A DNA stretch of 63,841 nucleotides from Candidatus Shapirobacteria bacterium (GTDB lineage: Bacteria; Patescibacteriota; Microgenomatia; UBA12405; JAUWLS01), in NCBI GenBank assembly GCA_030613565.1, contig JAUWLS010000003.1, positions 1 through 63,841 on the forward strand. Reading direction: 5' to 3'. This document shows positions 52,449 through 54,947 of the stretch, piece after piece. The translations under genes were made by a program, and so were the position numbers. The notes below the pieces were generated by a model. That model searched no databases, had not been told where the DNA came from, and was given only the letters and a program-made list of their open reading frames with translations. Every line of letters begins with the position of its first letter. Positions within the stretch are counted from its first letter, which is position 1.

Positions 52449-52475
52449 AACTCAATCTAGCACGAACTGACTGTT

Positions 52476-52610
52476 AAAATTGATTTTTAAACTCCAAAAA
52501 ACTATAATTCAAGCATCACGAAGGGGAAAAGACTTCAAGGTTTCGTCCTTAAAGCAATACCTTTTTTTTGTTTTAAGATCTAAAACGACCTTTCCTCCAA
52601 ACAATCCAAT
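52476..52610. repeat. Repeat D1: promoter/hairpin unit and relic NYN 3' end
   Basis: 52476-52521 is 44/46 identical to 53586-53631. The minus strand then reads IGLFGGKVVLDLKTKK versus IELFKKKVRLDPKRKK at the NYN C-terminus. Confidence 0.8.
52515..52569 (+). ncRNA. Candidate small RNA, copy 1
   Basis: Follows TTGATT-N17-TATAAT (52480-52508); hairpin ACTTCAAGG-TTTCGT-CCTTAAAGC, then T8. Confidence 0.4.
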
Positions 52611-52638
52611 ATTCGCTAACTATAAGTCTACACCTACC

Positions 52639-53022
52639 TCATTTTCTCTCTTTTTGCACCAACTCCTTATCAAAACTCAATATTCCAAACCCACTTATCT
52701 TCGCCCACGAAAGCAAAAAACTATCTACGAAATGCAAGCCTTTTTTATACCACTTCCACAAAGCCAAAAGTGTCTTTCTCTCGTCTATTTTAAACCACCT
52801 CTGGCTCAAAAAACTTTCAAACACTCTTGCGATCTTTTCCCTATCTTGCCCATAAAAAGACTCTAACACAAAACAACATTCTGCTATCACCAAAGGACTT
52901 ATCGCCAACTTTCTCTTTCCTGCCTGAGCTTCCTTGAACCATTTTTTCGCCCTGTCTTTCTGTTTCTTGTCATCTCCCACCAAATACCTCAAAATCACAT
53001 TTGTATCCACTATTTCAGTCAT
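52639..53022 (-). CDS. vapC: PIN-domain (VapC) toxin
   Basis: IVDTNVILRYLVGDD, ISPLVIAECCFVL, LHFVDSFL, ILSFDKEL. Confidence 0.88.
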   Translation of the reverse strand: MTEIVDTNVILRYLVGDDKKQKDRAKKWFKEAQAGKRKLAISPLVIAECCFVLESFYGQDREKIARVFESFLSQRWFKIDERKTLLALWKWYKKGLHFVDSFLLSWAKISGFGILSFDKELVQKERK

Positions 53023-53260
53023 TTTTTGCCCATTTCTTACTAAATTCCAATCTAGCCTTCGTTAGTTCTTTATCACTAAGCTTAACATCTGATTTCAAAA
53101 AACCAGCCAAGCTCCAAAAATCCATCTTTGGCTCCACGATTATTTTATTCCCTCTTTTCTCTATCACTGCCTTGATTGAATCTCGCACCCCAAAAGCATC
53201 TCTTATTGATTTTGGGATAGTTAACTGTCCTGTACTAGTTATTGATACGATCTGTTGCAT
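53015..53260 (-). CDS. AbrB/MazE/SpoVT-family antitoxin
   Basis: VSITSTGQLTIPKSIRDAFG. Confidence 0.85.
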   Translation of the reverse strand: MQQIVSITSTGQLTIPKSIRDAFGVRDSIKAVIEKRGNKIIVEPKMDFWSLAGFLKSDVKLSDKELTKARLEFSKKWAKND

Positions 53261-53377
53261 AATAATATTATATACTTTAATGAAATCTTGTCAAATAATG
53301 CGTACTAAAAAACAATTATTTTTTCAATAAACTTACCTACCTCTCTTTCTTTTGAGTGTGGTAAAGCTAAAGGAATC

Positions 53378-53593
53378 ATGCTTAACACCATTGATGATCA
53401 TTCTCAATTCAAGTGGCCTTACTTCTATCAGGGAAACAATAGTCAGCGGTACAATTCCGGAAGAAAACATCTAGGATACAAGATGAATAAGCTTACTCCC
53501 CAGAGAAAGATTGAAGAGTGGATCATTAACAACAAAACATCAGACGAGTTTGTCCCGGAGGTAAACGAAACCCTGATACTCTGCAAAAATTGA
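53378..53593 (+). CDS. Small hypothetical ORF or gene fragment
   Basis: 71-codon ORF inside the accessory island; AAGGA before the ATG; no motif. Confidence 0.3.
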   Translation: MLNTIDDHSQFKWPYFYQGNNSQRYNSGRKHLGYKMNKLTPQRKIEEWIINNKTSDEFVPEVNETLILCKN

Positions 53594-53624
53594 TTTTTAA
53601 ACTCCAAAAAGCTATAATTCAAAC

Positions 53625-53681
53625 ATCACGATGAGGGGACTACCAAAGGGTTTTATCCCGAGGGAATGCCTCTCATTTTTT
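53625..53681 (+). ncRNA. Candidate small RNA, copy 2, antisense to the NYN stop region
   Basis: Follows TTGATT-N17-TATAAT (53590-53618); outer stem ATGAGGGG/CCTCTCAT, inner GGG-TTTTAT-CCC, then a T-tract. Confidence 0.45.
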
Positions 53682-54179
53682 ACGTTTAGGATCTAAGCGA
53701 ACCTTCTTCTTGAACAACTCTATCTTTACTATATGGGCACCAAACTTCCTCAAAAGGGAGGAATATTTTTTACTAGGCGCAATTATTTTCCCCAATTTTC
53801 CCTTCTTTTCTAAGTATTCAACTAAACAATGAAAGTCGCCATCACCTGACACAATAATAGCCTTGTCATATTTTTTGTACTCAATCATTGTGTGTAAAAC
53901 CAACTCTGCATCCACATTTCCTTTTACCATCACTTTTTTGCCTTTCTTGATCTTTAAAGTAGGTTTAAAAACACAGATATACCCTGATTTTTGAAGATAT
54001 GTATACAAACCCTCATTTCCCTCAAGATAGCCAATAAACAAAAAGGCCTCTTTCACTTTGTACTTGTCTCTTAAAAACTTGTAAAACCTTTCAAAATCTA
54101 ATACCCAACCCTGACTTCTCACTCCAAGATTCAGGTTTTGACTATCAATAAAAGCAAACACTCTTTTCTTCTTTCTCAT
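53673..54179 (-). CDS. NYN-domain (PIN-fold, LabA/DUF88-like) nuclease
   Basis: AFIDSQNL, KGNVDAELV, VSGDGDFHCLV. Confidence 0.9.
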   Translation of the reverse strand: MRKKKRVFAFIDSQNLNLGVRSQGWVLDFERFYKFLRDKYKVKEAFLFIGYLEGNEGLYTYLQKSGYICVFKPTLKIKKGKKVMVKGNVDAELVLHTMIEYKKYDKAIIVSGDGDFHCLVEYLEKKGKLGKIIAPSKKYSSLLRKFGAHIVKIELFKKKVRLDPKRKK

Positions 54180-54260
54180 ACTTAATAATACGAAGAAAAC
54201 CCGAAGATGTAAACACCTAACTGACTTGAACCTTTTCCTTTCTTCCTAGATACTGTTTGT

Positions 54261-54947
54261 ATGTCTATTCTTCTTTCTCTTTCCCTATTCTCAATCCTTT
54301 CTCTTTTTCTTTCTTACTCCCCGCTCTCCTATTTCATTCCCCAACTTATTGCCTTTCTTACCTTTCTCACCCTCGTCCTAAACTTTAAAAAACACGCCCC
54401 CCTCCTTGTCTCTTCCACCACTCTCGTCCTTATCACCACCATCACTTCTCTTCTCATCTTCTCCACTGGAGCCCTTGCCTCCCCTCTCTTCTTCCTCCTC
54501 TATTTCCTTCTCTTCTTCATTGCCTTTCTCTATCCTCCTCCTGTCACTCTTTCTTTCACCATCATTTACATCCTCCTTCTTTCTCCCTCTCTCACCTCCG
54601 AATCCTCTGTCCTCTCTCTTCTTTCTCTCCTTCTAGTCACCCCTTCTTCCATCTTCTTTTCAAAACAATACCTTAAACTTCTAAGTCAACAAAACAAAAT
54701 CCTCATCTTAAAAAAGAAACTAAAAAAAGAAGAAAAGTCTATTCAATCTACTGAAACTGACATCCTCCTCTGGACCTCTCTTAACTTAAAGTCTTCCCTT
54801 CAAAACGTCCTCGACTCTCTTTCCTCTCTCCTCCCCACTTCCACTCCCATCCAAAAACAAGAACTCAAAAAGTCCCAATCCATCATCCAAAAACTCCTCA
54901 AACAAAGTACTTCCCTTGCTAAAAAAATTGACCAAATCACCGACTAA
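54261..54947 (+). CDS. Membrane protein with HisKA(DHp)-like coiled coil lacking the phospho-His and ATPase domain
   Basis: About 5 TMs, then 'WTSLNLKSSLQNVLDSLSSLL' (compare SHELRTPL..I.G...LL) and a second helix; stops with no HATPase domain. Confidence 0.55.
   Translation: MSILLSLSLFSILSLFLSYSPLSYFIPQLIAFLTFLTLVLNFKKHAPLLVSSTTLVLITTITSLLIFSTGALASPLFFLLYFLLFFIAFLYPPPVTLSFTIIYILLLSPSLTSESSVLSLLSLLLVTPSSIFFSKQYLKLLSQQNKILILKKKLKKEEKSIQSTETDILLWTSLNLKSSLQNVLDSLSSLLPTSTPIQKQELKKSQSIIQKLLKQSTSLAKKIDQITD

What the first reader, a model, noticed from the sequence alone, without database searches (positions are those of the whole stretch)
52476..54179. NYN nuclease paired with a conserved convergent promoter and ~55-nt structured RNA
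Seen twice: TTGATT-N17-TATAAT, then ATCACGA, an outer stem, an inner stem-loop (AAGG-TTTCGT-CCTT versus GGG-TTTTAT-CCC) and a T-tract, directed at the 3' end of an NYN gene (intact at 53673; relic at ~52560-52610). The promoter segment is 44/46 identical, the adjacent coding relic only about 30/48, and the RNA body differs in sequence but keeps the fold. Inference: the promoter/RNA unit is selected and travels with NYN. It may be an RNA antitoxin (antisense or type III-like protein-binding) or a substrate or guide RNA, i.e. a possibly undescribed NYN-sRNA module.
Basis: partly seen in the sequence, partly recalled or inferred. Interest (0 to 1): 0.65.

Follow-up and report, generated by a model that had tools for sequence, protein, structure and literature searches.

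The report
Small RNA partner of NYN nuclease
A predicted RNA-cutting enzyme gene (NYN family) in this ultra-small bacterium is faced tail to tail by a tiny, strongly promoted, highly conserved hairpin-RNA gene; the pair recurs in hundreds of genomes from many phyla, and it most likely works as a toxin with an RNA antidote, a pairing I found in no paper or RNA-family library.

Summary
Two promoter + ATCACGA + hairpin + T-tract units lie at 52480-52569 and 53590-53681. Copy 2 converges on an intact NYN gene (PF01936), and the NYN stop codon lies inside the RNA's 3' arm. Copy 1 sits beside a 17-codon NYN relic followed by a VapBC pair.

The unit is not local. All assessable relatives of this NYN carry a convergent small-RNA gene at their 3' end: 76 of 80 by covariance model (the other four are one further subtype, seen by eye, and three contig ends), plus 31 of 31 more distant paralogs. 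They span many CPR lineages, Omnitrophota, Nitrospirota, Chloroflexi and others.

- **Structure:** 11 of 12 base pairs covary.
- **Strand:** G-U pairs mark the promoter strand as the RNA strand.
- **Promoters:** they keep their position, not their sequence.
- **5' leader:** the unpaired AAUCAC is nearly invariant.
- **Constraint:** the RNA is far more conserved than the NYN coding sequence.

RNA-only loci exist. No assessable intact NYN lacked the RNA. Five viral contigs carry the RNA without NYN.

Copy 1 is a different, partly decayed subtype. The whole 1.75-kb block is an insertion relative to a same-genus genome.

Best reading: a mobile NYN toxin/RNA antidote cassette, with the mechanism (protein binding or antisense) unresolved. 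It has no match in Rfam 15 or the searched literature. No transcript data could be obtained.

The parts
52465..52472 (.). Left copy of the direct repeat AACTGACT (extended, imperfect: CACGAACTGACT from 52461) at the left edge of the 1.75-kb insertion
   Evidence: The same-genus genome G001 has comEA followed directly by the membrane-protein gene. The window's homology to G001 stops at 52463 and resumes at 54224.
52480..52508 (+). Promoter of RNA copy 1 (TTGATT-N17-TATAAT)
   Evidence: 10/12 match. 44/46 identical to the copy-2 promoter segment.
52515..52569 (+). Small RNA copy 1: orphan, of another subtype, partly decayed (AUCACGAAGGGG...CCUUUUUUUU)
   Evidence: R1 18.9 bits, E 0.027. About 90% alike to the L071 (G026) and L115 RNAs, which face intact NYN genes. 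Fold -9.7 kcal/mol against -22.5 and -17.5 for those relatives.
52560..52625 (-). Relic of an NYN C-terminus (about 17-20 codons) overlapping the 3' end of RNA copy 1
   Evidence: frame-0 translation...NIGLFGGKVVLDLKTKK..., 10/17 identical to the C-terminus of the intact NYN.
52639..53022 (-). VapC-like PIN toxin gene occupying the place of the lost NYN body
   Evidence: PF01850, E 1.6e-14.
53015..53260 (-). VapB-like AbrB/MazE antitoxin gene. Its promoter, TTGACA-16-TATAAT, is at 53294-53267.
   Evidence: PF04014, E 1.5e-7; 12/12 promoter match.
53590..53618 (+). Promoter of RNA copy 2 (TTGATT-N17-TATAAT)
   Evidence: Equivalent promoters sit at the same distance in 62 of 74 related loci (at least 9/12 match), against 3 of 74 shuffled controls.
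53625..53681 (+). Small RNA copy 2 (about 57 nt): 5' leader AUCACGAU, outer stem GAGGGG/CCUCUC, internal loop ACUA/GAAUG, 2-bp middle helix, inner GGG-UUUUAU-CCC hairpin, U6 tail
   Evidence: -20.4 kcal/mol, z -3.0. (R1 81.2 bits). Covariation.
53673..54179 (-). NYN (LabA-like, PF01936) nuclease gene, 168 aa, catalytic Asp residues intact. The last 3 codons and the stop overlap the RNA.
   Evidence: 55.5 bits. (D12, N15, D90, D113, D115 invariant in 12 homologues). (PDB 2qip_A, E 5.5e-5).
54185..54213 (-). Promoter-like site of NYN (TTTACA-N17-TATTAT), abutting the right edge of the insertion
   Evidence: 10/12 match.
54219..54226 (.). Right copy of the direct repeat AACTGACT (extended: CACCTAACTGACT from 54214)

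Best explanation
The 632-bp unit 53585-54216 is a compact, horizontally mobile two-gene cassette. It holds a stand-alone NYN ribonuclease, which I read as the toxin or effector. It also holds a constitutively transcribed, terminator-ended, structured small RNA of about 57 nt that keeps the nuclease harmless, the antidote.

I favour direct inhibition as the main mode. In this reading the RNA's invariant single-stranded 5' leader (A)AUCAC and the adjoining hairpin are bound by NYN as an inhibitor or pseudo-substrate, as in type III toxin-antitoxin systems. The convergent overlap with the NYN stop-codon region would add a cis-antisense or terminator layer.

Copy 1 is the surviving antidote of a second cassette of another subtype. 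Its NYN gene was destroyed when VapBC took its place.

Shown here:
- the pairing, its conservation and the RNA structure
- the strand of the RNA, its promoters, and the mobility of the cassette
- RNA-only loci and phage copies

Inferred:
- transcription of the RNA
- toxicity of NYN and its neutralisation by the RNA
- the mode of neutralisation

My probability that the RNA is an antidote by any mechanism is about 0.7. My probability that protein binding is the main mode is about 0.4.
For: **Pairing**
- 18 of 21 (order) and most of 26 (class) RNA hits face an NYN gene.
- Starting from NYN, 76 of 80 loci from many phyla have the RNA on the opposite strand at the gene's 3' end. The four misses are L115, which has the copy-1 subtype by eye, and three contig ends.

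**A real RNA**
- 91% of cells pair and 11 of 12 pairs show double changes. The covariation score is 0.529 against 0.199 for shuffles (0 of 500 reach it) and at most 0.16 for slid controls.
- There are about 50 G-U cells against few A-C cells, so the promoter strand is the RNA strand.
- Promoters matching at least 10/12: 50 of 74, against 1 of 74 shuffled.
- Conservation jumps from about 40% to 95-99% exactly at the predicted start, AUCAC.
- ATCAY is not a generic start-site feature: 1 of 42 strong promoter-like sites in this genome has it.

**Constraint on the RNA itself**
- Ten loci share a 100% identical 51-nt RNA core, yet their NYN coding sequences are only 61-99.8% identical (median 68%).
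- The 5' arm and the leader lie outside the NYN coding sequence and still covary or stay invariant.
- The NYN C-terminal tail varies in length and frame.

**Antidote-like genetics**
- RNA-only loci exist: window copy 1, G010, G090, L047, L049, L053, L054, L055, L059. No assessable intact NYN lacked the RNA.
- Five IMG/VR viral contigs carry the RNA with no NYN nearby and no T-tract. One lies between a portal gene and the next gene, beside a terminase.
- Modules that share a genome are always of different subtypes.

**Mobility**
- The site is empty in same-genus G001.
- In G007 and G032 the cassette splits an ABC-2 permease/ATPase gene pair.

**Enzyme**
- A bacterial NYN is a sequence-nonspecific, Mn-dependent ssRNA nuclease (abstract of 10.1101/2024.04.08.588522). 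A free-standing copy is therefore plausibly toxic.
Against:
- No experiment shows that NYN is toxic or that the RNA neutralises it.
- The strictly conserved convergent layout, with the NYN stop codon inside the RNA-covered stretch in 66 of 74 loci, is what a cis-antisense (type I-like) mechanism predicts. A pure protein-binding model does not require it.
- The RNA-only/NYN-only asymmetry is only weakly discriminating. The NYN gene is about 8 times larger as a mutational target, so decay would hit it first anyway.
- Viral-contig calls come from IMG/VR, and only one contig was confirmed by hallmark phage genes.
- The NYN candidate HEC-09 gave no phage protection in E. coli.
Confidence: 0.42

Rival explanations
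1. Cis-antisense (type I-like) control. The small RNA pairs with the fully complementary 3' end of the NYN mRNA, including the last codons and the stop codon. The duplex is cut by RNase III or blocks termination, so little or no NYN is made. The RNA never needs to touch the protein.
For: - The convergent overlapping layout is kept in every locus, even where the hairpin bodies are unrelated.
- The NYN stop codon lies inside the RNA-covered region in 66 of 74 loci.
- RNase III is encoded in this genome.
- Strong constitutive promoters suit an antitoxin RNA made in excess.
- From memory, not verified here: Bacillus subtilis type I pairs (txpA/RatA, bsrG/SR4) work through 3' overlaps.
Against: - A cis-encoded antisense RNA is complementary by construction. 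This model therefore does not explain the near-invariant unpaired leader and internal loops across phyla.
- It also does not explain 100% RNA identity where the coding sequence is 68% identical.
- In 5 of 74 loci the coding sequence does not overlap the RNA at all.
- It is not shown that the NYN mRNA extends through the RNA gene.
- Untested lead from earlier scan notes: other NYN families carry their RNA upstream on the same strand.
Confidence: 0.28
2. Positive partner. The RNA is a cofactor, guide, scaffold or dedicated substrate that NYN needs in order to act, forming a ribonucleoprotein. It is not an inhibitor.
For: - Strict co-occurrence: NYN was never found without the RNA.
- The RNA sequence, including a single-stranded 5' leader that could pair with a target, is extremely conserved.
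Against: - The leader is invariant, so it cannot programme varied targets.
- No complement of the leader stands out in the genome.
- Intact RNA genes persist where NYN has been deleted.
- Phage contigs carry the RNA alone. This fits a decoy better than a cofactor.
Confidence: 0.13
3. No dedicated RNA function. The hairpin is only a terminator, perhaps bidirectional, for NYN. The promoter only provides transcriptional interference, or the conserved hairpin is a DNA-level recombination site of the mobile cassette.
For: - The hairpin plus T-tract is a canonical terminator on the plus strand.
- The cassette is mobile, and its left edge coincides with the start of the promoter repeat.
Against: - On the NYN strand the hairpin is not followed by a U-tract.
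- A consensus promoter sits 4-9 nt (mostly 6) before the conserved leader in most loci.
- Unpaired nucleotides are 95-99% conserved.
- G-U pairs favour one strand.
- Orphan and phage copies persist, the phage ones without a T-tract.
- No recombinase gene lies in the insertion.
Confidence: 0.06

Closest known systems
Type III toxin-antitoxin / abortive-infection systems (ToxIN, CptIN, TenpIN) and the pseudo-ToxI decoy of phage PhiTE (my own knowledge; PMC4627078 was listed)
   Same: - An endoribonuclease toxin paired with a small structured RNA antidote.
- Both are compact and mobile, occur as several co-diversifying subtypes, and have phage-borne copies of the RNA alone.
   Different: - Here the RNA is a single copy, not a tandem repeat array.
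- It has its own promoter and lies convergent to the nuclease gene, overlapping its 3' end, rather than upstream on the same strand.
- The nuclease has an NYN/PIN-like fold, not the ToxN/AbiQ fold.
- Processing of the RNA by the nuclease is unknown.
Type I toxin-antitoxin loci with convergent 3' overlap (Bacillus subtilis txpA/RatA, bsrG/SR4; par of pAD1, Fst RNA I/RNA II), from my own knowledge
   Same: - Tail-to-tail genes.
- A strongly promoted small RNA complementary to the 3' end of the toxin mRNA.
- RNase III is available.
   Different: - The toxin is a 168-aa soluble nuclease, not a small membrane peptide.
- The RNA is much shorter (about 57 nt).
- Its unpaired nucleotides are conserved across phyla, which simple antisense does not require.
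Type I pairs with nuclease-like toxins (SymE/SymR, RalR/RalA of E. coli), from my own knowledge
   Same: A nuclease-type protein toxin restrained by a small RNA.
   Different: - Those RNAs overlap or pair with the 5' or coding region of the mRNA.
- The toxin folds are unrelated.
- They lack a conserved structured RNA family spread across phyla.
LabA-like NYN proteins, PF01936 / COG1432 (PDB 2qip; Matelska et al. 2017, PMC5499597)
   Same: The protein is a member: the Pfam match and the conserved acidic residues are both present.
   Different: The review lists the bacterial members as of unknown function and mentions no RNA partner.
Other bacterial NYN nucleases linked to defence: the CRISPR-associated NYN of Bacteroides fragilis (10.1101/2024.04.08.588522) and the Hachiman-embedded candidate HEC-09 (10.1101/2024.01.29.577857)
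   Same: - NYN domain with a weak PADLOC match to HEC-09 and to 'NYN'.
- The B. fragilis enzyme is a nonspecific ssRNA nuclease.
   Different: - Those proteins have other partners or extra domains, and no dedicated convergent small RNA is described for them.
- HEC-09 gave no protection in the assay.

Membership tests
NYN domain family, PF01936 (LabA-like) | Match to the Pfam model above its gathering score | tested here: met
   55.5 bits against a cut-off of 24.2, residues 7-144.
NYN domain family, PF01936 (LabA-like) | Conserved acidic active-site residues of PIN-like nucleases | tested here: met
   D12, N15, D90, D113 and D115 are invariant in 12 homologues, including the window protein.
NYN domain family, PF01936 (LabA-like) | Metal-dependent RNase activity | not testable with these tools
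   Needs an enzyme assay. Shown for a different bacterial NYN.
Type I toxin-antitoxin | The antitoxin is an RNA complementary to the toxin mRNA | tested here: inconclusive
   The RNA gene overlaps the NYN 3' end: 9 nt of coding sequence here, and the stop codon lies inside the RNA in 66 of 74 loci.
Type I toxin-antitoxin | The toxin is a small (under about 60 aa) hydrophobic membrane peptide, the usual case | tested here: not met
   The protein is a 168-aa soluble NYN nuclease.
Type III toxin-antitoxin (ToxIN/CptIN/TenpIN) | The antitoxin is an array of tandem RNA repeats upstream of the toxin gene, on the same strand, separated from it by a terminator | tested here: not met
   The RNA is a single unit, convergent with NYN in 76 of 76 model hits.
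Type III toxin-antitoxin (ToxIN/CptIN/TenpIN) | The toxin belongs to the ToxN/AbiQ-type endoRNase families | tested here: not met
   Pfam gives only PF01936. PADLOC gives only NYN and HEC-09.
Type III toxin-antitoxin (ToxIN/CptIN/TenpIN) | The RNA binds and inhibits the protein directly | not testable with these tools
   Needs co-purification, EMSA or a structure.
Any Rfam 15 RNA family | Covariance-model match at or near the gathering score | tested here: not met
   nothing above 10.3 bits, E above 2.
Plain intrinsic terminator | A GC-rich stem followed by a U-tract, with no other conserved feature | tested here: not met
   The stem and U-tract are present. In addition there is a dedicated promoter, an invariant 5' leader and conserved loops.
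VapBC type II toxin-antitoxin (neighbouring genes 52639-53260) | A PIN toxin gene preceded by, and overlapping, an AbrB/MazE-type antitoxin gene | tested here: met
   (PF01850, PF04014). The two genes overlap by 8 nt.
Transposon- or integrase-borne insertion | A recombinase gene inside the insertion, plus a target-site duplication | tested here: inconclusive
   The empty site in G001 and an 8-bp direct repeat are present. No recombinase ORF lies in 52473-54218.

The most novel reading that the evidence does not exclude
NYN plus convergent small RNA is a previously unrecognised class of RNA-antidote nuclease system, of an abortive-infection or addiction type, spread by horizontal transfer through more than ten phyla.

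In this reading a single RNA of about 57 nt inhibits a nonspecific PIN-like RNase by presenting its invariant 5' AAUCAC leader next to a hairpin as a pseudo-substrate. The leader may mimic the natural target. From memory and untested: AUCAC also begins the single-stranded 3' tail of 16S rRNA, where the PIN-like nuclease Nob1 cuts in archaea and eukaryotes.

The system would have diversified into mutually insulated subtypes. Phages would counter it by carrying decoy copies of the RNA.
Probability: 0.3. Interest if true: 0.85.

Novelty: new variant of a known kind. Interest (0 to 1): 0.72.

Why it matters
- Bacterial stand-alone NYN (PF01936) proteins number in the thousands and are listed as of unknown function (PMC5499597). 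A dedicated partner RNA gives them a testable biology.
- If the RNA is an antidote, this is a new family of RNA-controlled toxin or defence systems. It combines features of type I (convergent overlap) and type III (a structured, sequence-conserved RNA).
- It is abundant in the genome-reduced CPR bacteria, whose defence and addiction repertoire is poorly known.
- The RNA is also an unannotated RNA family, with hundreds of members and clear covariation, that is missing from Rfam.
- The cassette is only about 630 bp, so it is easy to test in E. coli.

Tried and rejected
- **Rfam 15.** Gathering thresholds on the whole window and permissive thresholds on the RNA gave no family.
- **tRNA or tmRNA.** None at the site.
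- **Cultured phages (INPHARED) and plasmids (PLSDB).** No match to the RNA or to NYN.
- **A target complementary to the leader.** TCATCGTGAT occurs only at the RNA gene itself and in two ordinary coding regions.
- **A conserved micro-ORF starting at the AUG of AUCACGAUGA.** Rejected. Its length and frame differ between subtypes, and several subtypes have no AUG (reading).
- **Mimicry of the sarcin-ricin loop (ACGAGAGGAC).** Rejected. The GAGAGG stretch is a stem arm that covaries to GACUGG or GACCAAG.
- **Pseudoknot between the leader and the apical loop.** Rejected. The loop sequences are not conserved.
- **Coding constraint of the NYN tail as the cause of RNA conservation.** Rejected. The 5' arm and leader are outside the coding sequence, and the tail varies in length and frame.
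- **Weak model hit at 62151-62190.** It lies antisense inside a Fic-family gene and is spurious.
- **Loose viral pattern scan.** 25 of its 30 hits were chance matches inside genes. Only 5 pass the covariance model.
- **Empty-site comparison.** G001's contig ends 124 nt beyond comEA. That is enough to see the neighbouring gene start, but not enough to define the ancestral junction base by base.
Full report
**1. Observation**

- Copy 1: TTGATT-N17-TATAAT at 52480-52508, ATCACGA from 52515, T-tract at 52562-52569.
- Copy 2: the same hexamers at 53590-53618, ATCACGA from 53625, T-tract at 53676-53681.

The promoter segments are 44/46 identical.

Copy 2 runs into the 3' end of an intact NYN gene at 53673-54179 on the minus strand (PF01936, 55.5 bits). 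The NYN TGA stop sits inside the 3' arm of the RNA's outer stem.

After copy 1 comes a relic of an NYN C-terminus of about 17 codons. It is followed by a VapC (PIN) / VapB (AbrB-MazE) pair.

Copy 2 folds far better than shuffled sequence (-20.4 kcal/mol, z -3.0). Copy 1 does not (z -0.45). There are only these two copies in the 858-kb genome.

**2. The unit is a widespread RNA gene that travels with NYN**

A blastn search of 60 related genomes found the RNA body at 75-88% identity in six genomes of other families. In all six it converges on an NYN gene.

Searches starting from the RNA:
- A covariance model built from 7 sequences found the RNA in 21 of 132 genomes of the order, one copy per genome. 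18 of the 21 lie beside a full NYN gene.
- A second model, built from 20 sequences, found it in 73 of 401 genomes sampled from the class, in 66 of 295 genera.

Searches starting from the protein:
- At least 564 loci in the species-representative genome collection encode close relatives of this NYN.
- By record title, the best 80 come from many CPR lineages: Woese-, Shapiro-, Gottesman-, Davies-, Collier-, Levy-, Falkow-, Kuenen-, Magasanik-, Nealson-, Nomura-, Dojka-, Doudna-, Peri- and Gracilibacteria, and Saccharibacteria.
- Others come from Omnitrophota, Nitrospirota/Thermodesulfovibrionia, Chloroflexi, Elusimicrobia, WOR-3, Lentisphaerae and Planctomycetes. Some 'Gammaproteobacteria' labels on co-assembled MAGs look unreliable.
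- The model hits 76 of these 80, always on the strand opposite to NYN and at its 3' end. Of the four misses, two have 2 or 29 nt of downstream sequence, one runs into an IS-like sequence at a contig end, and one (L115) carries the copy-1 subtype by eye.

NYN homologues occur in 45 of 132 genomes of the order. So do 11 of 11 further paralogs at 29-51% protein identity, whose hairpin bodies are unrelated.

**3. It is an RNA, read from the promoter strand**

On the 76-sequence alignment:
- 91% of cells form standard pairs.
- 11 of 12 pairs show changes on both sides.
- The covariation score is 0.529. Column shuffles give 0.199 (0 of 500 reach the observed value) and slid partners give at most 0.16.
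- The 20-sequence MAFFT alignment, which was not fitted to the model, gives the same picture.

G-U pairs are frequent, about 50 cells. A-C mismatches, which would be G-U on the other strand, are rare. This favours the promoter strand.

A sigma-70-type promoter with at least 10/12 matches ends 4-9 nt (mostly 6) before the conserved leader in 50 of 74 loci. In shuffled upstream sequences the figure is 1 of 74. The spacer sequences themselves are not conserved.

Column conservation jumps from about 40% to 95-99% exactly at A-U-C-A-C, the predicted transcription start. ATCAY is not a general start-site feature in this genome: 1 of 42 strong promoter-like sites has it.

The architecture is as follows:
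- a 5' single-stranded leader, (A)AUCACGAU
- an outer stem of 6-7 bp
- a conserved internal loop, ACUA / GAAUG or a variant
- a 2-3 bp middle helix
- a UAA/GAN-like or AAA/GMG internal loop
- a 3-bp inner helix with a U-rich loop
- a U-tract

There is no match in Rfam 15.

**4. Relation to the NYN reading frame**

The NYN stop codon lies inside the RNA-covered stretch in 66 of 74 loci. There are two modes, about 20-28 nt and about 50-58 nt from the RNA start. In 5 loci the coding sequence ends before the RNA, and in 3 it runs through the whole RNA.

In the commonest subtype the last 11 codons (KKTGIRGRSKP*) are antisense to the RNA, and the stop codon is the complement of CUA in CCUAAGG.

The tail peptide changes with the stem. 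TG, RG and TK follow the CCAGUC, CCCUCUC and CUUGGUC arms. The tail is truncated or in another frame in other subtypes. The 5' arm and the leader lie outside the coding sequence, yet they covary or stay invariant. The RNA therefore drives this conservation, not the peptide.

Ten loci share an identical 51-nt RNA core, yet their NYN coding sequences, with the overlap excluded, are only 61-99.8% identical (median 68%).

**5. What the two copies in this window are**

Copy 2 belongs to the subtype AUCACGAUGAGAGG...CCUCUC. Copy 1 belongs to another subtype: it is about 90% alike to the RNAs of G026 (L071) and L115, both of which face intact NYN genes.

Compared with those two, copy 1 has a C-A mismatch in the 8-bp inner stem and has lost two C's of the outer 3' arm. 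It folds at -9.7 kcal/mol, against -22.5 and -17.5 for its relatives.

The window therefore once held two cassettes of different subtypes. The NYN gene of the first was replaced by VapBC, and its RNA is an orphan in early decay.

Other genomes with several modules (G082, G039, G072, G031) also hold different subtypes.

The 44/46 promoter identity is confined to this genome. I read it as local duplication or gene conversion, bounded on the right by the shared ATCACGA.

**6. The block is an insertion**

In the same-genus genome G001, comEA is followed after about 75 nt by the homologue of the membrane-protein gene that starts at 54261 in the window.

The window's homology to G001 stops at 52463 and resumes at 54224. 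The 1.75 kb in between is flanked by the direct repeat AACTGACT at 52465-52472 and 54219-54226, which extends imperfectly to CAC-N-AACTGACT. No recombinase gene lies inside.

A single cassette runs from the -35 element of the RNA promoter to the -35 element of the NYN promoter, 53585-54216 (632 bp).

In G007 and G032 the same cassette sits between an ABC-2 permease gene and its ATPase gene. By reading of the ORFs only, the same holds in G040.

**7. Genetics that bear on function**

RNA-only loci exist:
- window copy 1
- G010 and G090, whose genomes have no NYN at all
- L054 and L055, which have no NYN within 1.5 kb
- L047, L049, L053, L059 and L038, which keep only NYN fragments

No assessable intact NYN lacked the RNA.

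Five IMG/VR viral contigs carry a model-positive RNA (27.8-55.3 bits) with no NYN in several kb of flank and no T-tract. In L174 the RNA lies between a portal-like gene and the next gene, next to a terminase.

A bacterial NYN enzyme is a nonspecific, Mn-dependent ssRNA nuclease, so an unrestrained copy is plausibly harmful. RNase III is encoded in this genome.

**8. Mechanism**

The pattern is that of a toxin with an RNA antidote. It is compact, mobile and patchy (18% of the class sample). It occurs as several subtypes that coexist only when different. It leaves orphan RNAs behind, and phages carry the RNA alone. I put about 0.7 on this reading.

How the RNA acts is open.
- For direct binding (type III-like, my preference, about 0.4): unpaired nucleotides are conserved across phyla, the leader is kept even where the hairpins are unrelated, and the RNA is far more constrained than the gene.
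- For cis-antisense control (type I-like, about 0.3): the convergent layout never varies, and the stop codon almost always lies inside the RNA-covered stretch.

Both may operate. A cofactor or guide role (about 0.13) fits the orphans and the phage copies poorly. A terminator-only reading (about 0.06) is contradicted by the promoters, the leader and the loops.

**9. Comparison with what is known, and novelty**

The protein is a member of PF01936. The 2017 classification of PIN-like domains lists the bacterial members as of unknown function and mentions no RNA partner.

The module fails defining features of type I systems (a small membrane-peptide toxin). It also fails those of type III systems (a tandem-repeat RNA upstream on the same strand, and a ToxN-type toxin). 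It works like a mixture of the two.

Five full-text searches found no description.

Earlier notes of this scan report the same pairing in other genomes. They are not independent evidence. I re-tested the pairing, the phage copies and the operon insertion. I did not test their report that other NYN families carry the RNA upstream on the same strand.

**10. Limits**

- All function is inferred.
- The genomes are MAGs.
- Apart from L174, the viral status of the contigs rests on the IMG/VR classification.

Noticed in passing
window 53261-53589: The 330 bp between vapB and the copy-2 promoter hold a 71-codon ORF (53378-53593, + strand). It has no Pfam or NCBIfam match and no relative in the fetched loci or elsewhere in the genome. 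Its stop codon lies inside the -35 element of the copy-2 promoter. Its origin is unknown; it may be a gene fragment carried in with a cassette.
   Followed up: partly
window 53267-53294 (- strand): A perfect consensus promoter, TTGACA-16-TATAAT (12/12), lies directly upstream of vapB.
   Followed up: no
window 61277-62718: A Fic-family gene (HPFxxGNGR motif, 61277-62311, +) lies next to a small nucleotidyltransferase-like gene (62383-62718, -).
   Followed up: no
L092 (JAAZMX010000033.1) 1980-2129: The RNA gene is expected behind this NYN gene. Instead the contig runs into a sequence that looks by eye like the end of a transposase gene (...EFRFNHRKDDNLAKVIKKIIKKHY*) and then ends. A possible remnant of the RNA 3' end (GCACCTTTTTATTT) precedes it. 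It may be an IS insertion into the RNA gene, or an assembly break.
   Followed up: partly
L007 (G007) and L008 (G032) 600-2870; L012 (G040): In these genomes the NYN-RNA cassette sits between an ABC-2 type permease gene and its ABC ATPase gene. NYN overlaps the permease gene end and has no promoter of its own. The cassette edges therefore differ from those in the window.
   Followed up: partly
RNA 5' leader, window 53625-53629 and 52515-52519: The invariant leader AUCAC is identical to the start of the single-stranded 3' tail of 16S rRNA (GGAUCACCUCCUU, from memory). A 5-mer match can be chance.
   Followed up: no
G026:C28 25367-26428: An NYN fragment (residues 121-157) lies about 420 nt upstream of the intact NYN that carries the copy-1-type RNA. 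This is another case of a relic beside a live cassette.
   Followed up: no
L175 4707-5360 and L175/L185 peptidase genes: The two best viral-contig RNA copies lie near M23-type peptidase/endolysin-like genes and, in L175, near a gene matching a 'CRISPR/Cas system associated' PHROG. No hallmark capsid or terminase gene was among the ORFs tested on these two contigs.
   Followed up: partly
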